Positions 27,583 through 51,231 are shown, counted from the first letter of the stretch. The stretch is 64,000 bases of DNA from an uncultured Planctomycetota bacterium (GCA_964571525.1 CAZNBY010000001.1:90329-154328); one strand, 5' to 3'. The notes: generated by a model not told the origin, from the sequence alone. Made by a program: numbers and translations.

Positions 27583-28356
27583 ATGGCACAGAAGATCACG
27601 ATCGCCAATCAAAAGGGTGGAGTCGGCAAAACGACCACCGCGATTAACCTCGCTGCAGGTTTTGCTCTTGCTGGTCAAAAGGTCTTACTTATTGACCTCG
27701 ACCCGCAGGGAAACGCCTCTTCAGGGCTTGGGTCGTCGAAATCGCAAGCTGAATACAGCTCTGCGACAATCTTCACATTGCCCGAAGCCGCTGCTAACTT
27801 GCCGATGCAGACCGAAACGCCTAATCTCTTCATTATTGAAGGTTCGCTTGCCCTGCTTGAACTTGAATCCCGACTCGCTAACGAGCCTGACAAGTACATG
27901 CGCATGCGACTCGCGTGCGAGATCATTGATGAGCAATTTTCCGTAATTGTTATTGATTGTCCACCATCTCTTGGCCTTCTGACTCTTAACGCACTTAATG
28001 CGAGCGACAGGCTTATAATCCCCATCCAGTGCGAATATTTCTCGATGGAGGGTCTAACCCAGATTCTAAAGGTTACAAAAGAGATTCGGGCAGAATCCAA
28101 CCCTTACCTTGAGCTTGGCGGCATATTGTTCACAATGTACTCGCCCGGCATCCGCCTTGCTGAAGAAGTTCGCGACGAGGTGTTAAAGCACTTTCAACGC
28201 GATGTGTATTCAGCCGTCATCGCCCGGGATATCGCTCTCAGCGAGGCGCAAAGCTTCGCAAAGTCAATTTACGAATACGCGCCGCGCTCGATTGGCGCAA
28301 GAAACTATGTCGAACTCTCGCGGGAGGTTATGAAGCAATGGCAAATCGGAGTTTAG
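27583..28356 (+). CDS. parA: Chromosome partitioning ATPase ParA/Soj
   Basis: Deviant Walker A KGGVGKTT; GGAGA RBS. Confidence 0.9.
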   Translation: MAQKITIANQKGGVGKTTTAINLAAGFALAGQKVLLIDLDPQGNASSGLGSSKSQAEYSSATIFTLPEAAANLPMQTETPNLFIIEGSLALLELESRLANEPDKYMRMRLACEIIDEQFSVIVIDCPPSLGLLTLNALNASDRLIIPIQCEYFSMEGLTQILKVTKEIRAESNPYLELGGILFTMYSPGIRLAEEVRDEVLKHFQRDVYSAVIARDIALSEAQSFAKSIYEYAPRSIGARNYVELSREVMKQWQIGV

Positions 28357-29219
28357 GCCGCGGTTTCAGCTCGCTGCTGAACAACACGACAAATCAGCCA
28401 ATGACTACCAAGCGGCTCGCACTGTCGGTGGAGATTCCGCTTGACAGGATATCGCCAAATCCATACCAGCCACGCCGAGAATTCGACGAAGATTCATTGC
28501 TCGACCTTGCAAAGAGCATTGAGCAAGATGGCGTCCTTTCACCGGTAATTGTCAAGAGGCATAACGACTCTTACATACTCGTCGCGGGTGAGCGCCGCTT
28601 CCGTGCCGCCCAATTGGCCGGTCTTACGCGAATACCCGCAATTGTGCGCGATGTTACAGAACGCGAGATGCTCGAGCTTTCCATAATTGAAAACATACAG
28701 CGTGAAGACCTGAATCCTCTTGATAAGGCCATTGCTTACAACGATCTGCTAACAAAATTCAGCATGACACAGGAACAGGTCGCCGAGCGGGTCGGGCAGA
28801 AGCGCTCGACCGTCGCAAACTTCATCCGCCTTCTCAACCTGCCGGAATATGTGCAACAAGCGCTGCGCGAGGAAAAGATCTCGATGGGGCACGCCCGTGC
28901 TATCCTCTCATGCCAAGATGCTGACCGTCAAGCCCAACTATGCAAAATGGCAATTGAAGAAGACATGTCGGTGAGGCAGGTCGAAAAGCTCTCTGGCATC
29001 GCTCAGGCATCGCCCGCGCAATTGGTCGAGAAGACTGAACCTGCGCCAAAACCTCCAGCAGAGCAGGGCATCGCTGAGGTTGAGGACTTTTTGCGCCGCT
29101 TCTTTGGCACAAAGGTAACTCTGAAGCATAACAAGGGGCGCGGCAAGATTGTTATTGACTACTTCAGCGTTGACGATCTGAACCGCATACTCGCGATCCT
29201 CGAATCTACCAACAAATAA
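28338..29219 (+). CDS. parB: Chromosome partitioning protein ParB/Spo0J
   Basis: ParB motifs (GLGRG-like N-terminus, GERRFRAA, ENIQREDLNPLD), HTH; overlaps parA by 19 bp. Confidence 0.9.
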   Translation: MANRSLGRGFSSLLNNTTNQPMTTKRLALSVEIPLDRISPNPYQPRREFDEDSLLDLAKSIEQDGVLSPVIVKRHNDSYILVAGERRFRAAQLAGLTRIPAIVRDVTEREMLELSIIENIQREDLNPLDKAIAYNDLLTKFSMTQEQVAERVGQKRSTVANFIRLLNLPEYVQQALREEKISMGHARAILSCQDADRQAQLCKMAIEEDMSVRQVEKLSGIAQASPAQLVEKTEPAPKPPAEQGIAEVEDFLRRFFGTKVTLKHNKGRGKIVIDYFSVDDLNRILAILESTNK

Positions 29220-34112: not shown

Positions 34113-34143
34113 ATAATAAAATGGGGAGGTTTGCACCTCCCCA
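34113..34143 (-). terminator. Terminator (bidirectional-capable) after the HtrA-like gene cluster
   Basis: TGGGGAGGT-TTGC-ACCTCCCCA 9-bp stem, followed on minus strand by TTTTATTATC. Confidence 0.6.
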
Positions 34144-34165
34144 TTGAAGCTTTAAAGAAACAACC

Positions 34166-36295
34166 TTAATCGTAGTTAACAACCATCTTCACAAAGTCGT
34201 TGGCCATTGTGCCAAGCCCGGCAATAGACCTGCGCTTTCCTTCGATTAAGAAGCTCTTTTTGCGCGTTGCGTCAAGGTTCTTATAAGTCGAGTTAAAGGA
34301 GTTCACATTCTGAATTCCTTTCGAATCAACTGATACAATCACAAATCCGGGTGTGATATAGGCCCTTTCGGCGGCAGAATTCTCCATCACCGCGATGACC
34401 TTGACACCAAGCCCTTCAGGCAGACCATACTGTAATGACTCTGTCTTTGAAAGCGGAGATACAACCAATCCCCAACGCTCTGCGACGACAATTTCGTCAA
34501 CGCTCTTCGGTTGGGGCGCGGTCTTAATCTTCACTTTGCGCTTCCCCTCGCCGGTGTTTTCCTTCACATATAAGGTCAGCTCCGTATTGATAGGTAAAGA
34601 GGCAAAGATGTGATAGATGATGCCGAGGTCTGGTGAATTACGGCAGTTTATTGGCTTCTGAACGGTATTTTCTCCATCTGTGTATTCAATCTGATAAATC
34701 AACTGACCAGGCTTGATGTCTGTGCTGGAAGCAGGTGAGTCTGCGTCTATTCCTGCAATTGCAACGCCTTTTTCTGTGGCTGGAAGCTCAAGGCTCTTAA
34801 GTGAATCAAAGATGATTCCAGTGTATGAGCGGTTGACTTTGCCGTATTTGCGGATCGAATTAGCTATCTCGCGAACATAGTTCGAATGAATCGCAAAGAA
34901 CAAGCCTTCATAGTCTGTTAATCCAAACGCTCTGTGCAATCCCGCAACACAAACGCCAACAACCTTGCCGTCAAGATCAACCAGCGGCCCACCGGTGCTG
35001 CCCCAGTTTATGGGTGCATCGGTCTGGAAAAACTGGTGATAGAAACCGCTGGATTCACCTGTGCGAACCTGATACACCGTGTAACGATCAGGGCATGAAA
35101 GAATGCCAAGCGCAACCGAATTTGCCCTGCCGTTCGGTGACCCAACGCTTAACACCGTTTGTGCGACATTCTCTTTCGCTGCGTCTGAATCAGCCCACTC
35201 TACATCGTAAAGCACCTGATTATGAGCCTTCAACAGAGCCTGATCGAGCAAGAGCACCGCAATATTCGATGGTACATCAGGCTTGCCGATTACCTTTGCG
35301 GGGTACACGCTTTTATCGTGTAACATGACGCGGATCGAACGAGCGCCTGCGATGTTCTCATAGCATGTTACGACATAACCTTCAATGCCGAGTGAACCTT
35401 CCGGCTTGAAGATGAATCCAGATCCATAATACTCGATGCGTTTTGGGCGGCCACGCTCGAATACATCAATGTCGGCAATAACCGTCACAGTGCCCTTAAC
35501 AGCGCGCTCCGACGCGGTAGAGTACTTCTTCTGAACGCCTCGATATATTGTCTCTTGATCAACCTTGCCAAGCATTCCAGCAGCGATCAGTTTATCCTTC
35601 AATATTTTCGACACTTCCTCTGCTGTCTTCTGATAGGTACGAACATTGGATTCTACTGCATCGCTTTTAACTGTGCCGCCCATCATGTTCAACACAAAAT
35701 AGCCGCCTACGATAAGCGCGATAAAGACGATAAAGTTGAGAATCAATGCGACCCCAAAGAACGAAGGAGCCTTTGCCAGTGCCTCACGCTTGCGCTGTGC
35801 ATAGTCAACTTTGCCAACAAGCACGCCTTCGGGAATGTCTTCAACGACATCTTCAGGTTCTTCCTCGACAACAGGCTCTTCGATAGGAGCTGGAGTTCTT
35901 CTGCGCGACTGCTCAGGTGCTTCTTCTCTTCGCGCTCTTGCTGGAGGAGGTTCCTCCGGTTCCGGTTCTGGTCTGCCACGCCTCGACCTGATTGGGGGCC
36001 CTTCCTCAACCATGGGTTCGGGGGTATAGTCATCCTCAACCGGCGCAGGAATCGGCACTGCTGGTTCCGGTATGCGCGAACGGGCAGGGCGTTCTTCAGC
36101 AATTGGGCGCGGCGTTTCTGCGCGCGGAGTTTCACGCCGTTGGGGAATCGGGGTAGGTATCGGAGGTGGTGCGACAACAGGTTCATCTGCAACAGTCAGT
36201 ATCCCACCGCATTTCTTACAGCGAATCTTCGATCCGACTGGAAATTTCTCGACATTAAACTTTGCGCCACAAGAGCATTCTTGAATTCTTGCCAT
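34166..36295 (-). CDS. HtrA/DegP-like pseudo-protease with N-terminal MJ0042-type zinc ribbon, Pro/Glu-rich linker, TM helix and PDZ domain
   Basis: Zn ribbon MARIQECSCGAKFNVEKFPVGSKIRCKKCGGILTV; TM; trypsin-fold core aligns to gene 38038-39759 but His->Glu (VVTCYENI), Asp->Asn (SNIAVLLL), Ser->Thr (WGSTGGPLV). Confidence 0.7.
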   Translation of the reverse strand: MARIQECSCGAKFNVEKFPVGSKIRCKKCGGILTVADEPVVAPPPIPTPIPQRRETPRAETPRPIAEERPARSRIPEPAVPIPAPVEDDYTPEPMVEEGPPIRSRRGRPEPEPEEPPPARARREEAPEQSRRRTPAPIEEPVVEEEPEDVVEDIPEGVLVGKVDYAQRKREALAKAPSFFGVALILNFIVFIALIVGGYFVLNMMGGTVKSDAVESNVRTYQKTAEEVSKILKDKLIAAGMLGKVDQETIYRGVQKKYSTASERAVKGTVTVIADIDVFERGRPKRIEYYGSGFIFKPEGSLGIEGYVVTCYENIAGARSIRVMLHDKSVYPAKVIGKPDVPSNIAVLLLDQALLKAHNQVLYDVEWADSDAAKENVAQTVLSVGSPNGRANSVALGILSCPDRYTVYQVRTGESSGFYHQFFQTDAPINWGSTGGPLVDLDGKVVGVCVAGLHRAFGLTDYEGLFFAIHSNYVREIANSIRKYGKVNRSYTGIIFDSLKSLELPATEKGVAIAGIDADSPASSTDIKPGQLIYQIEYTDGENTVQKPINCRNSPDLGIIYHIFASLPINTELTLYVKENTGEGKRKVKIKTAPQPKSVDEIVVAERWGLVVSPLSKTESLQYGLPEGLGVKVIAVMENSAAERAYITPGFVIVSVDSKGIQNVNSFNSTYKNLDATRKKSFLIEGKRRSIAGLGTMANDFVKMVVNYD

Positions 36296-36316
36296 GTGTA
36301 ATCCCCTTAATTCGGG

Positions 36317-38026
36317 CTATTCGTCACCTTCGTCTTCTTCGTCTTCTTCGTCGTCTTCTCCACCGCCATCATCTCCCTCTGAGCTAATTCTGAGAGAATT
36401 GCTAACAAGAAAACAGCGCGTAAAGCCAGAACGAAGCACTTTGAAGAAAACCCATTTGAGTGACTTATCGCCAGCCAATTTTTGATATAGCTGCTCGATA
36501 CCCGCCTTAGTGGTTGGGGTTTCGTTTTCAATCGCCAAGATAACATCACCTATCCTTATTCCTGCATCGTAGGCACTTCCTGTTCTGTCAACAAACGATA
36601 CAAAAAAGCCCTTGCCTTGCTTAAAACCGCGGCGTGCCGCCTCGCGAGGCGTTAGGGGCTTTAAGGAAATCTCCCACATGGTACAAAGGAATTCGAAATC
36701 TCCCTCCTCTGACCATTCTTGAGGTGTTACTTTTACAGTAACCGATGAACCGTTGCGGTCGAGTTTTAGCTCGACATTAGAACCAGTCTTAAGTTCAGAA
36801 AGACGGCGACGCACAACGGCAAGGTCATCGTTGTCACGGGCTTCCACCGGAGAAGGGCCGACTGTGAGCAACACATCCCCCGGCTTCACTCCTGCCTTGT
36901 CTGCGGGCGAATCTGGAGCAACATAGGATACAAGAACCTTGCCGCTCTTGCCCTCAACATCAAATGTCTGAAGATCGAATCCAAGGTAAGCACGCGATAC
37001 ATGTCCCTGTGCAACAATATCGTCCGCAACCTTCATTGCGTAACCGATTGGAAGGCTGAAGTTAAGGTTTTTCACATACTCATAATTGAACGAGAAATTG
37101 CGGTATAGGTCTTCAGTGCTGAGCCAGTGCATGTTTACAGCTACAACTTCGCCCTTTGAGTTTGCGGTCGGGCCACCTTCAATTCCTCTGCTTATCGGAG
37201 AGCTGACTTGATAGAAAACTGAGTTTGTACCGGCAATCTGTCCATTACGAAGTGTGAATTCAAGAGATCTGTTAAGGTTTGATACTGCGCCGCGGAAAAA
37301 AGCTGATTTCCAGCGATGTGATGCTCCGGCGGTGATCACAGGTTCACCAAGCCCCACTTCAGTGCAGATTTCGACAACTGATATAGCACTGGGGTTGTCA
37401 ATCAGCGACATATCAATTTTCAAAACGCCTATGTTTGAGTCAGCATCGCCACCAATGACCTTTGCGCGGGTGATTTGCTCGTCCGGCAGAGTTACAATTG
37501 CGTAATCTGCACCGTCAACCGCATTGTAAGTCGTCAGAATATAGCCTTCGTTTTCGCGCTTGCCGGTCGGCATGAAGAAGAAACCCGAATATGGGCGGGA
37601 ATATGTATTGGCGACGCGCTTTGAATCTACGATCTCGTAGTAAACAGGCTCTACATAAGCCAGCGACTTTGCCACTTTCTTGCATGCATTTGGCACTTCA
37701 TTGAGGATGATCTCGTCAATGACCTTTTTTACATTCACATCCGTTTTCTTCGATTCGTCAATGCGCTTATCAATCTGAGATTTAAGCGTCGTCCAATCGT
37801 TCTGGTGCCGCTTTATATCGAAATTGTGCTCTGCCAAGCCGAATCTGACGGATTCGGAAATTGCGATTAACGCAATTATGGCAATAACCGCCAACACGAC
37901 ATTCAGCCAGAAAACTGGGGCAAGCCCGAGAAACTGCGCCGGTTTGACGACAGCCGGGCGAAACGGAATCGGCCTTATCCGCTTCTTTGCGCTTGCCGTA
38001 TCCTGCTTTGGTCTTCTTGCAGACAT
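36317..38026 (-). CDS. HtrA/DegP-like pseudo-protease, TM-anchored, two PDZ-like regions, poly-acidic C-terminal tail
   Basis: Trypsin-fold core with His->Asn (ILTTYNAV), Asp->Asn (SNIGVLKI), Ser->Glu (SRGIEGGPT); C-terminal EGDDGGGEDDEEDEEDEGDE. Confidence 0.7.
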   Translation of the reverse strand: MSARRPKQDTASAKKRIRPIPFRPAVVKPAQFLGLAPVFWLNVVLAVIAIIALIAISESVRFGLAEHNFDIKRHQNDWTTLKSQIDKRIDESKKTDVNVKKVIDEIILNEVPNACKKVAKSLAYVEPVYYEIVDSKRVANTYSRPYSGFFFMPTGKRENEGYILTTYNAVDGADYAIVTLPDEQITRAKVIGGDADSNIGVLKIDMSLIDNPSAISVVEICTEVGLGEPVITAGASHRWKSAFFRGAVSNLNRSLEFTLRNGQIAGTNSVFYQVSSPISRGIEGGPTANSKGEVVAVNMHWLSTEDLYRNFSFNYEYVKNLNFSLPIGYAMKVADDIVAQGHVSRAYLGFDLQTFDVEGKSGKVLVSYVAPDSPADKAGVKPGDVLLTVGPSPVEARDNDDLAVVRRRLSELKTGSNVELKLDRNGSSVTVKVTPQEWSEEGDFEFLCTMWEISLKPLTPREAARRGFKQGKGFFVSFVDRTGSAYDAGIRIGDVILAIENETPTTKAGIEQLYQKLAGDKSLKWVFFKVLRSGFTRCFLVSNSLRISSEGDDGGGEDDEEDEEDEGDE

Positions 38027-38037
38027 TGCTTCACCCT

Positions 38038-39759
38038 CTATTGTATATCAACGAAAATGAATATCTTCGCATTGCCGCGAAGAACCTCGAACACCGTTGG
38101 TGGAACCGCACCGCGTCCGATGTATCGGTTTATGTGTTGGATAATTATGTTGCGCATGTGATCGTGGGTTTCAGGTTTAACTCCGCACACTCGGAGAATT
38201 AGATCTCCCCTTTGAAATCCATACGGCTTGAGGTTGATCACATAGCGCGCATAGTTTTCAAGGCGCGAAGTGCCATCATTCCAGGCGCGTATGGCGATGC
38301 CGCCGTCGTCTTCATCAGGAAAGCCAGCCATCTCAAGGTCAGCCTCTGAGACCTTCTCGAAATACGCACCCCAAAGAATTTCTGCAAATTGCTTAAATGG
38401 TTGTTCTCTTCCGGGGAAGCCAATGCTGCGCATGGTCGCAGTCTTCTCTTCTCCAGTAATGTAGTTGCGCCAAGTAAGCTCGAACTCGGTCAGCACTTCA
38501 TTCATTTCGAACAGATAGTTTATGCGAGCAAGGTCGGCAAGGGTCTTTATGGTTGTATATTCCTCTGCCCCTGTCTTTATGTTGCGCACCTTTGTTACGA
38601 CATCGCCAGGGCGAAGCCCCGCTTCGTATGCCGGGCTTGATGATTCAACAGCGATAACCGGCGCACCGTTTCGGTTCTCCATACCGAAGAACGAAAGCGG
38701 AGCAAACGATACGCCTATTTTTGAACGATTGATAAAAGTGGTCGAGCCTGACTCATGTGCACGAACGATACGGTTCACAATGTCGCGCTCGTAGTTTGAC
38801 GCGATCGCGTAACCCACTCTCTGGAATTCGAACCATCCCAGAGTGTTCATACCAATAACCTTGCCTTCGATGCTCACCAGGGGGCCGCCGGAATTTCCGT
38901 GGTTGATTGGCGAGTCCATTTGGAAAAACACATGCTGCTGGTGTGCATAATGATTGCCAAGCATCATGGGAATAAAGCGATTTAGCCCGACTATTATTCC
39001 GAAAGATACCGACCTGCCAAGACCTTGCGGAGCACCCATTGCCATGCAGAATTCACCTACACGGATCTTGTCGCTATCGCCGAACTCGGCAGGACGAATG
39101 TTTGCTGCCTTTGATGTGTCGCGAAGTTTGATAACAGCAATGTCGCAAAAATCGTCTGCGAAAATTATGTCGGAAGGCACGATTTCCTGATTTGAGAGAA
39201 TTGACTCGACAATAGTTGCGCCTTGTACCACATGGAAATTTGTGACGATGTAGCCCTCGCGACGGTCGGTGTGGTGGTCGGGTCTAAATATAACTCCTGA
39301 ACCTGTACCATTGTTGCAGCTTACCATTACAACAGCGGGATAGACAATCTTGCGGGCGTCGGTTATCTTTTCGAACACCTTGTTCATAAAGTTCGTTGCG
39401 CGCTGCTCAGACTCGTCAACGATCTCTATCTTGCCTGCGTCAGCCTCCCAACGCTTTAGCTCGGGAGCAATGTCCTGAACTTCTTTTTCAAGCTTGTCTT
39501 TCGCCGTCTCGGCCTTTGCTTTGACCTTAAACGCGCCAATCGCGACACCAAGCAGCGATAACGCGATGATTAGAATGACAGAAATCATCGCGCCGGTCTT
39601 TGGGACCGATTCCTCCTGCTCTGCTGCGATCGCATCGGGGTCAACCGAGTATTCGACCGACAATACAGCTCCGCACTCAACGCACTTGTAGAGCTTTGCG
39701 GGATCCAGTTTGTCTGAATCGTAAACCGAACCGCATTTGCAAAATAATGACCTTGCCAT
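38038..39759 (-). CDS. HtrA/DegP-family serine protease with N-terminal MJ0042-type zinc ribbon and TM anchor (catalytic triad intact)
   Basis: Start ATG 39759 (GGAGGT RBS); Zn ribbon MARSLFCKCGSVYDSDKLDPAKLYKCVECGAVLSV; His (IVTNFHVV), Asp (DIAVIKL), Ser (NHGNSGGPLV) all present; PDZ domain. Confidence 0.8.
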   Translation of the reverse strand: MARSLFCKCGSVYDSDKLDPAKLYKCVECGAVLSVEYSVDPDAIAAEQEESVPKTGAMISVILIIALSLLGVAIGAFKVKAKAETAKDKLEKEVQDIAPELKRWEADAGKIEIVDESEQRATNFMNKVFEKITDARKIVYPAVVMVSCNNGTGSGVIFRPDHHTDRREGYIVTNFHVVQGATIVESILSNQEIVPSDIIFADDFCDIAVIKLRDTSKAANIRPAEFGDSDKIRVGEFCMAMGAPQGLGRSVSFGIIVGLNRFIPMMLGNHYAHQQHVFFQMDSPINHGNSGGPLVSIEGKVIGMNTLGWFEFQRVGYAIASNYERDIVNRIVRAHESGSTTFINRSKIGVSFAPLSFFGMENRNGAPVIAVESSSPAYEAGLRPGDVVTKVRNIKTGAEEYTTIKTLADLARINYLFEMNEVLTEFELTWRNYITGEEKTATMRSIGFPGREQPFKQFAEILWGAYFEKVSEADLEMAGFPDEDDGGIAIRAWNDGTSRLENYARYVINLKPYGFQRGDLILRVCGVKPETHDHMRNIIIQHINRYIGRGAVPPTVFEVLRGNAKIFIFVDIQ

Positions 39760-40024
39760 CGTACCTCCGAGGCAGGCGATAAAACAATGATTCTGCGTGA
39801 CTAATACCGAATTATAGGCTCTTTTGACAGCCGACAAACAATTATGTAGTGTTGAACTCAATAAGAGGCTATTCTATCTGTTCGTCGTGCAATCTTAGGT
39901 CACCTACAATTCAGTAAGACGAACAAACCGCTTAGTATGTTTCACCAACTTGCTCGCTAACAATTATCCTCGATCCAATGCGTACCCATTCGGCAATCCG
40001 CGCCCGATGCAAGCTCATTTTTAG

Positions 40025-40094: not shown

Positions 40095-41123
40095 ATGAGG
40101 TATTCGTTATTTGCACTTGCCTTGTTGTTTGTTTTTGTGGCTTCTTTCGTTGTAGCCGAAAACGACGAACCGACACCTACAACTTCACCAACCGCTGCTG
40201 CGGAACAGACCCCCGCGCCCACGCCAAAGCCGGAACTTGAGCTTGGCCACGATGCGGATGGCCTTTCTCTGCACCTTAACGGACCTTTTCATTTCAAGGT
40301 GGTTGATGGCGATATTATTGACCCAGTCAATATCGAGTTCAAGCTCGACCTTGTCGGCGACACAAAGGATGTCAAGCTCAACACAAACCCTTATGCCTCG
40401 TTTAAAATCGAGGCGATTGATGATGACAAACGCGAACCATTAAAAACGCTCAGCGAACAGCCTAAGGATGGAGTCGAGTTCACTCTTAAACTCACCGAAG
40501 GTTCATATTTCGGCGGTAAATTTAAGAGCCTTGAAAAGTACTTCGACTTCAGCGCTGGTGGCCGCTTCCATGTGCGCGCAAGCTACACGGTTGGTGAAAA
40601 GACCGCCGTCAGCGATTGGGCGGCAGTTGACATTTACACCCGCACCGTCGTTCGCATCAATACGCGTGAGGGCGAATTTGTTGTTCTTATGCGCGAAGAC
40701 AAGGCGCCACAGACCTGCGCAAACTTTGTCACGCTTGCAAAGCGCGGCTTCTATGATCACCTTATCTTCCACCGCGTCGAAAGCAAGCCCAACTTTAAGC
40801 TCATACAGGGCGGATGCCCACACGGCGATGGTTCTGGCGACGCTGGTTACAAAATTGACTTTGAAACTAATGATCTGAAGCATGAGGCCGGAGCAGTTGC
40901 TATGGGTCTTTCTCCCGGCGATAAAAACTCCGCAGGCAGCCAGTTTTACATCTGCGTCGAGCCCACTCCAAGCCTTGACGGTCAGTACTGCGTATTCGGC
41001 TTGGTAATCGAAGGCATGGAGACCATCAAGCGCATCGGCGCTGTGCAGGTCGGCAAGGTTGAGCCCACTCGTCCAAATATCCCAGTTGAAATGTCAAAGG
41101 TTGCCGTCGAATACTGGAAGTAA
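40095..41123 (+). CDS. Secreted peptidyl-prolyl cis-trans isomerase, cyclophilin type, with N-terminal domain of unknown function
   Basis: Signal peptide; cyclophilin motifs FHRVESKPNFKLIQGG, SAGSQFYIC. Confidence 0.85.
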   Translation: MRYSLFALALLFVFVASFVVAENDEPTPTTSPTAAAEQTPAPTPKPELELGHDADGLSLHLNGPFHFKVVDGDIIDPVNIEFKLDLVGDTKDVKLNTNPYASFKIEAIDDDKREPLKTLSEQPKDGVEFTLKLTEGSYFGGKFKSLEKYFDFSAGGRFHVRASYTVGEKTAVSDWAAVDIYTRTVVRINTREGEFVVLMREDKAPQTCANFVTLAKRGFYDHLIFHRVESKPNFKLIQGGCPHGDGSGDAGYKIDFETNDLKHEAGAVAMGLSPGDKNSAGSQFYICVEPTPSLDGQYCVFGLVIEGMETIKRIGAVQVGKVEPTRPNIPVEMSKVAVEYWK

Positions 41124-48085: not shown

Positions 48086-48844
48086 CTAACTCAAGTCCTT
48101 CTTTTGTGCGAGTTTGTTGTAGATAATCAAATCGTCAACACCGTTATACAGGCCCGAGGAGAGCACCAGCAAAACCTCGTCACCAAACGAGTGAAGGCGC
48201 AGATTTCCCTTTGCCATGCTTAGTTCTAATGTGCCGTTACCACCGATACTGAACGAGTCGCCGAAATACTTCGCAACTTTGTGAAGATAATAGAACGAAT
48301 TAGAGATCATCTCTGCATCGAATTCCGTTGGGCATTGGGCTGCAAGAAGCATTGCATCGCGGGAGAAGATGAATGCGGCGATAATCTTTCTTTGGCGGAA
48401 CACATCCTCAAGCGCTGGCACATACTCCGAGTCAGCAAATCTTCGCGACGATGGAGCAGGGGCGGGGGCCACTTTCTGTGCGCGTATTTTAGAGCCGTGT
48501 TCTACCACTTCCTCAACCGTCTCTGATGTTGTCGTCTCCTCGTTCGTCTCGCGCACTTCCTCAAGCATTTCGGTGCGCTTGTCGGGCTGAGACCCTCTAA
48601 CAGGGCGCGGCATGCCGGTGTTATCAACATCCATTATCGAGCCGCACTTAGAGCAACGGAATCGAATACCGGGCTTCATGCTTCGCGCATCGAACATCGC
48701 TCCACATGCAACACATGCGATAGAGCGACCGCCCGGCACCGTCAGATACATAGAACAACCGCGGCACTTAATTCTTGTGCCCGGCTTCAGCTTTTCAACG
48801 CTGTAATCCCTGTTGCATTCTGTACAGGTTATGATCTTTGCCAT
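48086..48844 (-). CDS. Tandem MJ0042-type zinc-ribbon protein with C-terminal roadblock/LC7 (MglB-like) domain (tentative)
   Basis: Two ribbons (MAKIITCTECNRDYSVEKLKPGTRIKCRGCSMYLTV; IACVACGAMFDARSMKPGIRFRCSKCGSIMDV); C-terminal alpha/beta segment assigned to roadblock fold from pattern only. Confidence 0.4.
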   Translation of the reverse strand: MAKIITCTECNRDYSVEKLKPGTRIKCRGCSMYLTVPGGRSIACVACGAMFDARSMKPGIRFRCSKCGSIMDVDNTGMPRPVRGSQPDKRTEMLEEVRETNEETTTSETVEEVVEHGSKIRAQKVAPAPAPSSRRFADSEYVPALEDVFRQRKIIAAFIFSRDAMLLAAQCPTEFDAEMISNSFYYLHKVAKYFGDSFSIGGNGTLELSMAKGNLRLHSFGDEVLLVLSSGLYNGVDDLIIYNKLAQKKDLS

Positions 48845-49005
48845 TTCGTCTTTTGTCCGTTATTTACGCACGAGGGGAATCGCGCGCGGGGGAAGGCTGG
48901 GTGTAAAAAAGTCAACCGTATAAGCAAGTGATTCGAACGAATCAAGTCTGCACAATATATATGATTGCGCTTATTCTGTCAAGTTTCACGCTTTGCGTGC
49001 ATTCT

Positions 49006-51231
49006 TTACGAAAGAAACGAGTCGAGCACACCTATCAGCGCGCCGCTTACTCCCTGCTTTGTAAAGTCGAAGTCGGTGCGCTTCTTTGTCTCGTCAATTC
49101 CATACTTACCAAGCGCAGTGCCGACTTTCCAGCTAAGCGTCCCTTCCCGATACAGCACTGCAACACGATGGCGGCGAAACTTGACAAGTGCAAGAGATAA
49201 AGCATCAATTTCAAGGTCCTCAAGCGACGGATCAGGCAATCCAATTATCACGGCACCCATCGCGCGGTCGAGTATGTTTTCTGCCTCAAAAGAGTCCATT
49301 TCGTCGTAGGTCATGCCAATCACATAAAGCGTGTTCTCAATATCGCCAGCGAGTCGCGTTAACAGGCAGTTGTCGTTGTTTGTTAAAGACACCGTTGCGC
49401 CAGTAAGATTTGAAAAATAGTCTGAAAGGTCATGCACATTGCCCAATACGATTATACACAGAACATTTGCGCGCGAGTAGAACGCCTCAGAAAGAATCCT
49501 GCCTGCCTTAGAAAGCGCCATCTCTCGCGCAACAGGCGAGTTTTGAAGTCGGCTTGCGAACTCCTCCCTGGCTTCTGGCGTTAAAATCATCCCGCTTATC
49601 TTTGCAAGTTCGACCTGCATCATCTCAACCACATCGGGCGGGAATCGTTGTATCAAGCGCGGTGCTTTGGGCTCCTCTGCTTTCTCGACAACAGCAGATT
49701 CGGGCTTCTTTTCCTCTACCTTATCATCCTCTTCAACCTCTTCTTGGATGACAAACTTCGGTACATCATTCACAGGATCATCGTCAAACAGCTCTTCTTC
49801 GTCAATCTCTGGCTCATTTGCTTTCTGTTCGATTTCGATTTCAGGTTCCGGCTGTGACTTTGGCTGTTCGTTGTATTGAAACTGCCTTACATCAACTTCA
49901 TGTCCTTGTGCAAGCGTTTCAGATACAGGTTCTTCAATTTTGCTGACGGGAATCGTTACCGTCTCGTCGGCATCAGCATACGAAGGAGTTTCGATTTCTT
50001 GCTTGCCTTGCGGTTCTTGCGCAGGTTGAGCAACTTCTGGCACAACTGACGGAGTTTGAGAAGGCTCTGGCTGCCATGCGGGAGCCTGCGGTTCAACGGC
50101 AGATTGAGATTGCGTTTCTGTTGATGGTGTCTGTGCTGCATCAGGCGCGGTTGCCGGTGGTTGAGAAGCCGAGGCAGCAGGTTTGTTGGCCGCCTGCCGG
50201 GCCGAGCGACGGTTCTGAGCAGGTGTCGGCATACCTTCAATGACCGACTTCACTCGTTCAAGCTCGTTGCCGATCCACTTTATGCTGTCTTCGACCTTGC
50301 GGACTATAAGCGATGCCTCTTCAATGTTCTCGTCTTCAAGCATCTTTTCGCCGTTTGCGATCATTGTCTCGCACTTGCCTACCGCATAGGGTATATACTT
50401 CTGCGCACCCTTTTCGATAAGCGCAGAAAACGCGGATTTGTGTCCGTCAAGCTCGCTCTTTATGGTCTGTTTGCGCGACACAGTGTAGGTGTCGAGCTTG
50501 CGCGAGAATTCGAGCAGCATGAACATCTGCGAACGCTGAATGTTCTCAGCACGAAGTTGCTCACCCTCTATGAATTCGAACCTCGCGCCAGTCGCTTTTA
50601 CAAGGTTGTATATTGACTGAACTCCCTCGTCCATCTCGTCGCGTGCGAAGGACATCACGCCTTTGCGAAACCATATCTGTGTTACAGAGGGGCCGGATAT
50701 AATGCGCAGAAGTCCAGTTCGGTTTGTCGTATTGAGAAGCTGCACAATGTCAGAGAACTGGCGTGGGTTAAACCGCCCGATAAGGCTCGCCTCAGAAAGC
50801 ACATCCATTCGGGTCGAACGGTTCAATACTATCTGTACCTTCAGCCTTAAAAGCTCATTATTGACAGGCAGTTCGAGGTAGTCATCGGCACCAGCGTTGA
50901 CAGCCTTTTCGAGTGCCGCTGCGCCCTCATCATACCCAACTAACAGCACGGGCAGGTTGCGCAGAAAGTGAGATCTTCTCACTTCGCTTGCAAGTTTGTA
51001 GCCATCGAGTTTTGGCATTGCAGTAGCAGCGATGAGAAATTCGAAACGCTCTGAGAAAAGACAATCGAGCGCGGTTTGACCATTGAGCGCTGTGCGCACA
51101 AGAAAGCCGTACGCTGATAGCGAGTGCGATGCAGACCCTAACCAAGCCGCATCGTCTGTCGCTAATAGAAGACGAGAGGATGAGTTACCGTTGACTATCA
51201 TGTTGTGCATATTATAGCGATAACCTTGCAA
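49006..51231 (-). CDS. Atypical receiver-domain protein with DUF4388-like domain, long Pro/Gln/Glu-rich disordered linker and C-terminal alpha/beta domain
   Basis: Receiver-like N-terminus has acidic pocket (LLLATDD) but phosphoacceptor position reads FLIAATAMP; DUF4388-like block TGLLRIISGPSVTQIWFRKG; about 250-aa low-complexity linker. Confidence 0.5.
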   Translation of the reverse strand: MQGYRYNMHNMIVNGNSSSRLLLATDDAAWLGSASHSLSAYGFLVRTALNGQTALDCLFSERFEFLIAATAMPKLDGYKLASEVRRSHFLRNLPVLLVGYDEGAAALEKAVNAGADDYLELPVNNELLRLKVQIVLNRSTRMDVLSEASLIGRFNPRQFSDIVQLLNTTNRTGLLRIISGPSVTQIWFRKGVMSFARDEMDEGVQSIYNLVKATGARFEFIEGEQLRAENIQRSQMFMLLEFSRKLDTYTVSRKQTIKSELDGHKSAFSALIEKGAQKYIPYAVGKCETMIANGEKMLEDENIEEASLIVRKVEDSIKWIGNELERVKSVIEGMPTPAQNRRSARQAANKPAASASQPPATAPDAAQTPSTETQSQSAVEPQAPAWQPEPSQTPSVVPEVAQPAQEPQGKQEIETPSYADADETVTIPVSKIEEPVSETLAQGHEVDVRQFQYNEQPKSQPEPEIEIEQKANEPEIDEEELFDDDPVNDVPKFVIQEEVEEDDKVEEKKPESAVVEKAEEPKAPRLIQRFPPDVVEMMQVELAKISGMILTPEAREEFASRLQNSPVAREMALSKAGRILSEAFYSRANVLCIIVLGNVHDLSDYFSNLTGATVSLTNNDNCLLTRLAGDIENTLYVIGMTYDEMDSFEAENILDRAMGAVIIGLPDPSLEDLEIDALSLALVKFRRHRVAVLYREGTLSWKVGTALGKYGIDETKKRTDFDFTKQGVSGALIGVLDSFLS

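What the first reader, a model, noticed from the sequence alone, without database searches (positions are those of the whole stretch)
34166..39759. Tandem trio of membrane-anchored HtrA-like paralogs: one intact protease followed by two copies with every catalytic residue replaced
Three co-oriented, tightly spaced genes (gaps 11 and 21 bp) encode the same architecture: cytoplasmic N-terminus, one TM helix, trypsin-fold domain, PDZ. The first transcribed (38038-39759) keeps His (TNFHVV), Asp (DIAVIKL) and Ser (GNSGGPLV). By manual alignment the second (36317-38026) has His->Asn, Asp->Asn, Ser->Glu, and the third (34166-36295) has His->Glu, Asp->Asn, Ser->Thr. Complete triad loss in two independent copies with the fold and PDZ domains retained suggests selected pseudo-enzymes (substrate traps, adaptors or regulators of the active paralog) rather than decay. 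Two of the three also carry a cytoplasmic zinc ribbon, which would allow signalling across the membrane. I do not know of a described system with this arrangement.
Basis: partly seen in the sequence, partly recalled or inferred. Interest (0 to 1): 0.8.

Follow-up and report, generated by a model that had tools for sequence, protein, structure and literature searches.

The report
One active HtrA, two pseudoprotease partners
A small uncultured group of Planctomycetota keeps a three-gene operon for membrane-anchored HtrA-type envelope proteases in which only the first can cut, while the other two have lost their catalytic residues but are still conserved by selection; this extends a known theme (active HtrA paired with a pseudo-HtrA) and is not a new kind of system.

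Summary
Three co-oriented genes on the minus strand, with gaps of 11 and 21 nt, encode single-pass membrane-anchored HtrA homologues.

- **A (38038-39759):** keeps His176/Asp206/Ser290.
- **B (36317-38026):** has Asn168/Asn198/Glu283 at those positions.
- **C (34166-36295):** has Glu313/Asn344/Thr434.

Profile alignments, PDB alignments and confident AlphaFold2 models (DegP/DegQ-like, protease plus two PDZ domains) agree on these positions.

The trio, in the order A-B-C, recurs in every related contig long enough to show it. I found five lineages at 43-61% amino-acid identity, all Planctomycetota MAGs. The substitutions are specific to each paralogue:

- A is always H/D/S.
- B is always x/Asn/acidic.
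- C is always Glu/Asn/(Thr or Ser).

dN/dS is about 0.1 for A and B and for the one stretch of C that could be compared; C also shows 14 synonymous to 1 non-synonymous change between near-identical genomes. B and C are therefore selected pseudoproteases, not decaying copies.

The function is inferred. Most likely B and C are non-catalytic sensor or scaffold subunits of a mixed HtrA assembly with A. Active/inactive HtrA pairings are already known (MamE/MamO, DEG7), so this is a new variant of a known kind. It is confined to one small uncultured clade. Interest is moderate.

The parts
38038..39759 (-). Gene A: 573-aa membrane-anchored HtrA with an intact triad (H176 codon 39232-39234, D206 39142-39144, S290 38890-38892)
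   Evidence: The start at ATG 39759 is supported by the GGAGG upstream and by the orthologue N-termini.
39673..39741 (-). A: N-terminal four-Cys zinc ribbon (aa 7-29, CKCG...CVEC)
   Evidence: Pattern is conserved in all A orthologues. No Pfam zinc-ribbon family appeared for A at E <= 1.
39529..39591 (-). A: single transmembrane helix (aa 57-77)
   Evidence: Hydropathy. The flanking charges do not follow the positive-inside rule.
38848..39303 (-). A: trypsin-fold protease domain (Pfam Trypsin_2, aa 153-304)
   Evidence: E 3.2e-26
38539..38718 (-). A: PDZ domain (aa 348-407). The C-terminal 130 aa align with PDZ2 of B and C but are divergent.
36317..38026 (-). Gene B: 569-aa pseudoprotease (N168 codon 37523-37525, N198 37433-37435, E283 37178-37180). 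It has an acidic C-terminal tail in this lineage only.
37859..37921 (-). B: transmembrane helix (aa 36-56) with a conserved internal Asn; preceded by P-x-Q-F-L-G-L-A
37136..37588 (-). B: degenerate trypsin-fold domain (Pfam Trypsin_2, aa 147-297)
   Evidence: E 2.8e-13; AF2 pLDDT 87; Foldseek to DegP/DegQ at 1e-29 to 1e-30
36470..36961 (-). B: PDZ1 (aa 356-433) and PDZ2 (aa ~471-519)
34166..36295 (-). Gene C: 709-aa pseudoprotease (E313 codon 35357-35359, N344 35264-35266, T434 34994-34996)
36209..36277 (-). C: N-terminal four-Cys zinc ribbon (aa 7-29)
   Evidence: Pfam Zn_ribbon_4 hit is only E 0.085.
35801..36187 (-). C: Pro/Arg/Glu-rich low-complexity linker between ribbon and membrane helix, presumed cytoplasmic (aa ~37-165)
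   Evidence: Seen in the sequence. Its composition is conserved but its sequence is not (0.24 invariant).
35690..35752 (-). C: transmembrane helix (aa 182-202) with a conserved internal Asn
34952..35425 (-). C: degenerate trypsin-fold domain (Pfam Trypsin_2, aa 291-448)
   Evidence: E 8.9e-20; AF2 pLDDT 88.5; Foldseek to DegP/DegQ at about 3e-28
34268..34828 (-). C: PDZ1 (aa ~490-595, from the model) and PDZ2 (aa 608-676, Pfam)
34120..34145 (-). Terminator-like hairpin (11-bp stem) just after gene C
   Evidence: This is a consensus scan only: 10 sites were found against 6.7 +/- 2.5 expected in the region.

Best explanation
**Proposal.** This is a conserved three-gene operon, htrA-like A-B-C, of a small uncultured clade of Planctomycetota (labelled Candidatus Brocadiia in NCBI records). 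All three products are type-II-anchored proteins. Each has an N-terminal tail taken to be cytoplasmic (with a zinc ribbon in A and C), one membrane helix, a helical linker, a DegP/DegQ-like protease fold and PDZ domains.

**Roles.** A is a competent serine protease. B and C are pseudoproteases kept by purifying selection. I propose that the three act together at the cytoplasmic membrane as a mixed HtrA assembly. This could be a heterotrimer, since trimers are the basic HtrA unit, or stacked trimers. Catalysis would be confined to A. B and C would supply the non-catalytic HtrA functions:
- capture of exposed C-termini or unfolded segments by their intact PDZ1 carboxylate-binding loops and their clefts;
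- transmission of activation to A through the conserved L3 arginine;
- scaffolding.

**Shown.** Architecture, triad states, conservation, selection, fold, co-localisation and gene order.

**Inferred.** Topology, co-transcription, physical association, allosteric role and substrates.
For: - **Triad states.** A is H/D/S; B and C are degenerate. Four independent alignments agree.
- **Conserved trio.** The order A-B-C is found in every contig long enough to show it: L003/L004, L007-L009, L010-L012, L014 (B and C complete, A cut off) and L001. A, B and C have the same narrow distribution.
- **Purifying selection.** dN/dS is 0.104 for A, 0.090 for B and 0.104 for the first 93 codons of C. Between L007 and L008, C shows 14 synonymous and 1 non-synonymous change.
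- **Fold.** The fraction of invariant columns in the protease domain is 0.57 for A, 0.33 for B and 0.54 for C. Models are confident (pLDDT 87-88.5) and their best matches are DegP/DegQ.
- **Operon signals.** Gaps are 11 and 21 nt, each gene has its own Shine-Dalgarno-like sequence, and a hairpin follows C.
- **Regulatory elements kept in B and C.** The position equivalent to L3 Arg178 and to Gln191 is kept in all three proteins. The x-phi-G-phi loop of PDZ1 is kept (A KIGV, B YLGF, C YTGI). The LD-loop P-x-x-L that receives the activation signal is canonical only in A.
- **Published basis.** In DegS/DegP the activation cluster joins L3 of one subunit to LD' of its neighbour, and inactive HtrA variants keep a chaperone-like function (PMC11642142). 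Engineered HtrA2 heterotrimers show PDZ-protease crosstalk between subunits (bioRxiv 10.1101/2021.10.04.462974).
- **Membrane helices.** A conserved Asn sits inside the helices of B (4/4 orthologues) and C (5/5) but not of A. From general knowledge, this is a feature that often drives helix-helix association.
Against: - No complex was predicted or measured.
- The paralogues are only 23-27% identical to one another, no closer than to unrelated HtrAs. Compatibility of their trimer interfaces is therefore not evident.
- In the best-studied natural hetero-assembly that I know of (Deg5/Deg8, from memory), homotrimers stack rather than mix.
- MamO promotes MamE proteolysis through its TauE transporter domain, not through its protease fold (PMC4794232), so pairing does not by itself imply a direct complex.
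- Arg178 is invariant in all HtrAs examined and may simply be structural.
- The flanking charges of A's membrane helix do not fit an N-in topology.
- No promoter was identified.
Confidence: 0.5

Rival explanations
1. B and C are stand-alone membrane-tethered holdases or chaperones. They would resemble a permanently 'protease-dead DegP' and work in parallel with A rather than in one complex with it. The operon would then be a triage module with separate degrade and hold arms.
For: Proteolytically inactive HtrA variants rescue stress phenotypes and show chaperone-like activity (PMC11642142). B and C keep the full protease fold plus two PDZ domains and intact PDZ1 binding loops. The divergently transcribed neighbour is a secreted cyclophilin-type prolyl isomerase, another folding factor, and it is conserved at this position in all lineages.
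Against: This does not explain why two different pseudo-paralogues are always kept together with A in a fixed order. Synteny of the whole region is conserved as far as ParA/ParB, so the cyclophilin neighbour may mean little. The chaperone role of DegP itself is debated.
Confidence: 0.25
2. The trio is a trans-membrane signalling device. The pseudoprotease ectodomains of B and C would be sensors or substrates. On envelope stress, A would cleave them, as DegS cleaves RseA, and this would free or alter the cytoplasmic zinc-ribbon tails, which act on a cytoplasmic partner.
For: The zinc ribbons are highly conserved (0.50-0.56 invariant). C carries a long linker between its ribbon and its membrane helix. 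The same type of ribbon occurs twice in a soluble protein at 48086-48844, next to a response-regulator/DUF4388 gene, so the module has cytoplasmic partners or roles in this genome.
Against: No sigma or anti-sigma factor, RseP-like site-2 protease or transcription factor lies in the conserved neighbourhood. B has lost its ribbon in four of five lineages. A, the putative cutter, carries a ribbon too. Nothing here tests cleavage.
Confidence: 0.12
3. C, and less likely B, is still an enzyme with a non-canonical centre. This would be a Ser/Thr nucleophile with Glu as general base, as in the Ser-Glu-Asp sedolisins, perhaps working at acidic pH.
For: Glu313 is invariant in 5/5 orthologues. The nucleophile position is always hydroxylated (Thr x3, Ser x2). 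The surrounding loops are almost invariant: TC[YH]ENIAGAR and NWGS[TS]GGPL.
Against: From my knowledge, no trypsin-fold enzyme with such a centre is known. Thr at this position is found in MamO and is dispensable there (PMC4794232). Asn replaces the orienting Asp. In B the would-be nucleophile is Glu or Asp.
Confidence: 0.07
4. B and/or C are metal-binding proteins like MamO and serve biomineralisation or metal handling.
For: MamO is the one characterised bacterial HtrA pseudoprotease; it binds transition metals and has Thr at the nucleophile position. B has conserved acidic residues in its former active site.
Against: Scores against the NCBIfam MamO and MamE models are 23-115 bits against a cut-off of 800. 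There is no TauE domain. No magnetosome genes are in the neighbourhood. The di-His motif was not examined.
Confidence: 0.03
5. B and C are decaying duplicates, or the triad 'loss' is an artefact of alignment or assembly.
For: None beyond the low identity between paralogues.
Against: Identical or nearly identical proteins occur in at least four independent assemblies. The frames are intact in five lineages, dN/dS is about 0.1, and four concordant alignments and confident models agree.
Confidence: 0.01

Closest known systems
MamE / MamO (and the duplicated MamE1/MamE2 pairs) of magnetotactic bacteria (PMC4794232)
   Same: An active, membrane-anchored HtrA protease with PDZ domains is encoded together with an HtrA-fold pseudoprotease that is kept by selection. 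MamO has Thr at the nucleophile position, as C does. [quoted passage not shown]
   Different: There is no magnetosome context here, no TauE domain and no magnetochrome domains. Here there are two distinct pseudo-paralogues, both keeping PDZ domains, and all three proteins share the same ribbon-TM architecture. Sequence scores to the MamE/MamO models are far below cut-off. MamO retains His and Asp, whereas B and C have lost them.
E. coli DegP/DegQ (MEROPS S1C, protease + PDZ1 + PDZ2)
   Same: These are the best structural matches for B and C (Foldseek E about 3e-28 to 1e-30). The domain order is the same. The L3 Arg, Gln191 and the PDZ1 carboxylate-binding loop are conserved.
   Different: DegP and DegQ are soluble periplasmic homo-oligomers with intact triads. 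The proteins here are membrane-anchored and have N-terminal tails that precede the membrane helix. Two of them cannot use the canonical mechanism. All three score far below the TIGR02037 cut-off (154-189 bits against 416).
E. coli DegS and other anchored HtrAs (B. subtilis HtrA/HtrB, M. tuberculosis HtrA/PepD; from memory)
   Same: An N-terminal membrane anchor carries the protease-PDZ unit on the outer face of the membrane. Activation by peptide binding to the PDZ domain, with L3-to-LD' communication between subunits, is the mechanism I borrow.
   Different: Those proteins are homotrimers of active subunits and have no zinc ribbon. DegS has one PDZ domain and a defined substrate (RseA). No anti-sigma system is seen in the neighbourhood here.
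Plant DEG7 / yeast Nma111-type proteins (PMC3194040, PMC3473262)
   Same: A duplicated HtrA protease domain degenerated and specialised in protein-protein interaction; it is the trimerisation module. This is a precedent for a scaffold role.
   Different: In DEG7 the active and degenerate units are fused in one eukaryotic polypeptide. Here they are separate bacterial genes, each with its own membrane anchor.
Synechocystis HtrA/HhoA/HhoB and chloroplast Deg5/Deg8 (PMC3195437 and PMC4877387 seen only in the search list; hetero-complex formation from memory)
   Same: Three HtrA paralogues in one organism, or hetero-oligomers of paralogues, acting in envelope or thylakoid quality control.
   Different: All members are catalytically active, the genes are not arranged as one operon, and there are no zinc ribbons.

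Membership tests
HtrA/DegP family (MEROPS S1C; Pfam Trypsin_2 + PDZ) | Chymotrypsin-fold protease domain followed by one or two PDZ domains | tested here: met
   Pfam hits lie above the gathering score for Trypsin_2 in A, B and C, and for PDZ_2/PDZ_6 in A and B (in C the best PDZ hit, PDZ_2 at 26.5 bits, is just under its 27-bit cut-off). AF2 models of B and C, which show two PDZ folds in each, match DegP/DegQ best.
HtrA/DegP family (MEROPS S1C; Pfam Trypsin_2 + PDZ) | Catalytic triad His-Asp-Ser | tested here: not met
   Met in A (H176/D206/S290). Not met in B (N/N/E) or C (E/N/T). B and C are homologues by descent but not peptidases of the family.
HtrA/DegP family (MEROPS S1C; Pfam Trypsin_2 + PDZ) | Score above the curated cut-off of NCBIfam TIGR02037 (Do family endopeptidase) | tested here: not met
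   187, 154 and 189 bits against a cut-off of 416. All three are divergent members.
HtrA/DegP family (MEROPS S1C; Pfam Trypsin_2 + PDZ) | Trimer as the basic oligomeric unit | not testable with these tools
   No multimer prediction or experiment was possible.
MamO-type HtrA pseudoprotease | Degenerate active site in an HtrA fold, encoded with an active HtrA | tested here: met
   comparison with PMC4794232
MamO-type HtrA pseudoprotease | C-terminal TauE transporter domain, magnetosome island context, and score above the NCBIfam MamO cut-off | tested here: not met
   No TauE hit. MamO model scores are 23-33 bits against 800. Neighbours are cyclophilin, a BatA-like protein, an enoyl-CoA hydratase, a beta-propeller protein and an ICMT-family protein.
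MamO-type HtrA pseudoprotease | Surface di-histidine metal-binding motif (H148/H263 of MamO) | not tested
DEG7/Nma111-type degenerate protease domain | Active and degenerate protease domains fused in one polypeptide with four PDZ domains | tested here: not met
   There are three separate genes, each with its own stop codon, RBS and membrane anchor.
DegS-type anchored site-1 protease of a sigma-E-like pathway | Partner anti-sigma factor, ECF sigma factor and site-2 protease | tested here: inconclusive
   None was found among the called genes within about 10 kb in the window or in the orthologous loci. The rest of the genome was not available.
Zinc ribbon (Pfam Zn_ribbon_4/5, MJ0042-like) | Two CxxC-type knuckles about 15-20 residues apart; family score above threshold | tested here: inconclusive
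   The four-Cys pattern is invariant in all A and C orthologues. The trio HMM also finds the double-ribbon protein at 48089-48859 (E 1e-13). Pfam scores are below gathering (E 0.085 for C and 0.0025-0.005 for the soluble protein). Metal binding is untested.

The most novel reading that the evidence does not exclude
The three proteins form an obligate asymmetric 1:1:1 HtrA heterotrimer, with one catalytic subunit and two different sensor subunits. The subunits would be held together in the membrane by the Asn-containing helices. The cytoplasmic zinc ribbons would couple envelope protein damage to a cytoplasmic response. This would be a naturally evolved division of labour within an HtrA trimer that doubles as a trans-membrane signalling machine.
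Probability: 0.15. Interest if true: 0.75.

Novelty: new variant of a known kind. Interest (0 to 1): 0.5.

Why it matters
HtrA proteases are studied as homo-oligomers whose subunits activate one another. Asymmetric trimers have so far been made artificially to dissect that allostery.

A natural, selected set of one active and two differently disabled paralogues would show which HtrA functions survive without catalysis: PDZ sensing, L3 signalling and scaffolding. It would also give a ready-made system for studying activation in trans.

The finding adds a second, independent bacterial example, outside magnetosomes, of the active-plus-pseudo HtrA pairing. This supports the view that the pairing is a recurrent evolutionary solution.

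Its reach is limited. The trio occurs in one small uncultured Planctomycetota clade, and nothing is yet known about its substrates.

Tried and rejected
1. **Decay or artefact: rejected.** See selection, conservation and the independent assemblies.

2. **Wider distribution: not found.**
   - A B-profile scan of 185,579 GTDB species genomes found only two loci, both Planctomycetota.
   - An exhaustive C-profile search of 1.84 billion cluster representatives found one cluster at 1273 bits; the next hit scored 218 bits.
   - The A search drops from 554 to 154 bits after four orthologue clusters.

3. **Origin of the paralogues: unresolved.** In a neighbour-joining tree with bootstrap, each orthologue group has 100% support, B+C has 55% and A+B+C has 17%. 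A first attempt with Biopython timed out.

4. **Long (617-713 aa) Verrucomicrobia-like hits to B: not relatives of the trio architecture.** They have signal peptides or lipoprotein-like N-termini, H/D/S triads and no ribbons.

5. **Promoter scan: uninformative.** No convincing sigma-70-like site lies upstream of A, and the counts are not above the shuffled expectation.

6. **Rfam: nothing in the window**.

7. **Literature:** I found no paper on a planctomycete HtrA trio.

9. **First Python run failed** on file naming and was repeated.

Full report
**1. What is in the window**

Three ORFs lie head to tail on the minus strand:
- A: 38038-39759. The mechanical ORF runs on to a TTG at 39861.
- B: 36317-38026.
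- C: 34166-36295.

They are separated by 11 and 21 nt. Each ATG follows a purine-rich Shine-Dalgarno-like sequence (GGAGG, GAGGGTG, AAGGGGA). An 11-bp hairpin sits just after C, at 34145-34120. The ATG at 39759 is the true start of A, because all orthologues begin M[AP]RSLFC.

All three proteins match Pfam Trypsin_2 and PDZ families. Their best NCBIfam model is TIGR02037 (DegP/HtrA), although all three score far below its cut-off (154-189 bits against 416). Each has a single hydrophobic helix: A residues 57-77, B 36-56, C 182-202. A and C start with a four-cysteine ribbon, CxCG-x16-CxxCG, at residues 7-29. C also has a Pro/Arg/Glu-rich linker of about 130 residues between the ribbon and the membrane helix.

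**2. The catalytic residues**

Four independent alignments give the same answer: phmmer alignments to solved HtrA structures, a MAFFT alignment of all orthologues, an hmmalign run, and an alignment to E. coli DegS.

| Protein | His position | Asp position | Ser position |
|---|---|---|---|
| A | H176 | D206 | S290 |
| B | N168 | N198 | E283 |
| C | E313 | N344 | T434 |

It is not noise. Of the 243 proteins returned by the first two homology searches, 236 have H/D/S, and the only degenerate ones are orthologues of B and C, plus one H/E/S. Of the 150 nearest cluster representatives, 139 have H/D/S.

AlphaFold2 models of the periplasmic parts are confident: C has pLDDT 88.5 and pTM 0.76, B has 87.0 and 0.80. 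Foldseek places both next to DegP and DegQ, covering the protease domain plus PDZ1 and PDZ2, with E about 3e-28 to 1e-30. B and C therefore retain the whole HtrA fold with two PDZ domains.

**3. Conservation elsewhere**

The same trio, in the same order and with the same neighbours, is found in every related contig long enough to show it:
- near-identical assemblies of the same species from four sequencing runs (L003-L006, 99.6-99.7% nt);
- a second lineage (L001, L007-L009, and L015, a Guaymas MAG named Planctomycetota bacterium B143_G9);
- a third lineage (L010-L012 and L016, named Candidatus Brocadiia bacterium);
- two further lineages on short contigs (L014 with partial A plus B plus C; L013 with partial B plus C).

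The shared neighbours are, on one side, a divergent cyclophilin and a BatA-like gene, and on the other an enoyl-CoA hydratase, a beta-propeller protein and an ICMT-family protein, then ParB and ParA. Orthologues are 43-61% identical to the window proteins.

The substitutions are specific to each paralogue and conserved:
- A is H/D/S in all lineages.
- B is [N,D,A,D,D] / N / [E,D,E,E,E].
- C is E / N / [T,T,T,S,S].

So Asp->Asn is invariant in both pseudo-paralogues. The former nucleophile of B is always acidic. The former His of C is always Glu. C keeps Ser in two lineages.

All three orthologue groups have the same very narrow distribution:
- A profile of B found only two loci among 185,579 species-representative genomes.
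- An exhaustive profile search with C against 1.84 billion cluster representatives found one cluster at 1273 bits, followed by ordinary HtrAs at 218 bits or less.
- The A search drops from 554 to 154 bits after its four orthologue clusters.

**4. Selection**

| Comparison | Gene | Result |
|---|---|---|
| L015 vs L007 (95.7% nt) | A | dN/dS 0.104 |
| L015 vs L007 | B | dN/dS 0.090 |
| L015 vs L007 | C, first 93 codons | dN/dS 0.104 |
| L015 vs L007 | cyclophilin neighbour | dN/dS 0.031 |
| window vs L004 | B | 2 synonymous, 0 non-synonymous |
| window vs L004 | C | 5 synonymous, 1 non-synonymous |
| L007 vs L008 | C | 14 synonymous, 1 non-synonymous |

Between distant lineages synonymous sites are saturated. 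Non-synonymous divergence is similar in the three genes (pN 0.28-0.41), with B the fastest.

Across three lineages, the fraction of invariant columns in the protease domain is 0.57 for A, 0.33 for B and 0.54 for C. The PDZ domains of B and C are at least as conserved as that of A, and the ribbons are among the best conserved parts at 0.50-0.56.

B and C are therefore functional pseudoproteases, not decaying copies.

**5. Relationship of the paralogues**

The three groups are only 23-27% identical to one another, about the same as to unrelated HtrAs. A neighbour-joining tree does not resolve their origin: each group has 100% support, B+C has 55% and A+B+C has 17%.

Shared architecture argues for local duplication. 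The ribbon has the same spacing in A and C, and also in B of the L010 lineage, so B lost it later in the other lineages.

B and C additionally share:
- Asp->Asn;
- a juxtamembrane P-x-F-[LF]-G motif;
- an Asn inside the membrane helix, conserved in 4/4 B and 5/5 C orthologues and absent from A.

The two losses of activity may therefore not be independent.

**6. How it probably works**

*From the literature.* In DegS and DegP the active conformation is stabilised by an activation cluster that joins the L3 loop (Arg178) of one subunit to the LD' loop of the neighbouring subunit. Substrates or peptides bound to PDZ1 trigger it, partly in trans. Proteolytically inactive HtrA variants still protect cells, which is described as chaperone-like function (PMC11642142). 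Engineered HtrA2 heterotrimers confirm PDZ-protease crosstalk between subunits (bioRxiv 10.1101/2021.10.04.462974).

*Shown here.*
- The positions equivalent to Arg178 and Gln191 are kept in A, B and C.
- The PDZ1 carboxylate-binding loop (x-phi-G-phi) is kept in all three: KIGV, YLGF, YTGI.
- The LD-loop P-x-x-L is canonical only in A (PQGL), half kept in C and lost in B.

The pseudo-paralogues thus keep the parts of an HtrA subunit that sense and transmit, and have lost the parts that receive and cut.

*Inference.* This fits with the fixed three-gene operon, the common membrane anchoring, the trimer being the basic HtrA unit, and the conserved helix Asn of B and C. I infer a mixed assembly in which only A cuts, and in which B and C bind clients or activating C-termini and regulate or scaffold A. 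I give this about 0.5.

*Main rival, about 0.25.* B and C are separate tethered holdases working beside A.

*Lesser rivals.*
- A DegS-like signalling cascade that uses the cytoplasmic ribbons, about 0.12. No sigma/anti-sigma or site-2 protease genes are nearby, and the ribbon was lost from most B orthologues.
- A non-canonical Ser/Thr-Glu enzyme in C, about 0.07.
- MamO-like metal binding, about 0.03.

*Caveat.* Topology (ribbon in the cytoplasm, protease outside) is inferred. The flanking charges fit it for B and C but not for A.

**7. Comparison with what is known**

Pseudo-HtrAs are not new.
- MamO is an HtrA-fold pseudoprotease with Thr at the nucleophile position. It binds metal and promotes MamE-dependent proteolysis. 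Duplicated MamE genes lost a triad three separate times. The authors inferred selection for pairing active and inactive copies (PMC4794232).
- Plant DEG7 uses a degenerate protease domain as its trimerisation module (PMC3194040).
- Plant genomes list several inactive Deg proteins (PMC3473262).

The present locus differs in several ways:
- it has two distinct pseudo-paralogues plus one active gene in one conserved operon;
- both pseudo-paralogues retain two PDZ domains;
- all three proteins share the ribbon-TM architecture;
- there is no magnetosome context, no TauE domain, and MamE/MamO model scores are 23-115 bits against a cut-off of 800.

I found no paper describing it. I therefore class it as a new variant of a known kind.

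**8. Verdict**

The claims of independent loss and of no known precedent are overstated, and the mechanism remains inference.

Interest is moderate at 0.5. It is a clean natural example of division of labour among HtrA paralogues and would be useful for studying trans-activation. It is confined to one uncultured clade and has a conceptual precedent.

Noticed in passing
window 48086-48844 (-), with neighbour 49006-51231 (-): A 252-aa soluble protein carries two tandem zinc ribbons of the same type as the N-termini of the HtrA trio (for example CTECNRDYSVEKLKPGTRIKCRGC). The trio HMM hits it at E 1e-13. An acidic linker and a C-terminal domain of about 100 aa follow; that domain has no Pfam match. 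The next gene encodes a response-regulator receiver plus DUF4388. The ribbon is therefore a recurrent module in this genome, here in a protein with no membrane helix.
   Followed up: partly
window 37859-37921 and 35690-35752 (-); the same positions in L007, L010, L013, L014: An Asn inside the single membrane helix is conserved in all B (4/4) and C (5/5) orthologues but is absent from A. It is preceded by a shared P-x-F-[LF]-G motif. This suggests helix-helix association and a common origin of B and C.
   Followed up: partly
C-termini of the C orthologues (window 34169-34200; L007, L010, L013, L014): All C orthologues end in a hydrophobic strand with a Tyr at or near the C-terminus (VVNYD, VVDYD, LVIY, IVRYF, IVKY). 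This recalls the aromatic C-terminal motifs that activate DegS-type PDZ domains. It may be only the last PDZ2 strand.
   Followed up: no
window 36317-36391 (-), the last 24 residues of B: An Asp/Glu/Gly-rich acidic tail (EGDDGGGEDDEEDEEDEGDE) is present only in the window lineage. Other B orthologues end in short basic or polar tails.
   Followed up: no
window 40095-41123 (+): A divergently transcribed secreted cyclophilin-type prolyl isomerase has an N-terminal extension of about 180 aa. It is conserved next to the trio in all lineages and evolves very slowly (dN/dS 0.031).
   Followed up: partly
window 38064-38083 (-): A terminator-like hairpin (8-bp stem) lies inside the last codons of A, just upstream of the B start. 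It could modulate the A:B expression ratio, but the hairpin count in the region is not clearly above chance.
   Followed up: no
protein P0265 (615 aa) from the representative search: This is another HtrA homologue with a degenerate triad (H/G/D) among the 150 nearest cluster representatives. It is unrelated to the B and C groups. P0292 has H/D/A.
   Followed up: no
window 27583-29219 (+): A ParA/ParB pair lies about 5 kb from the trio, and the whole block from ParA to the BatA-like gene is syntenic across lineages. Gene-neighbourhood arguments for the trio are therefore weak.
   Followed up: partly
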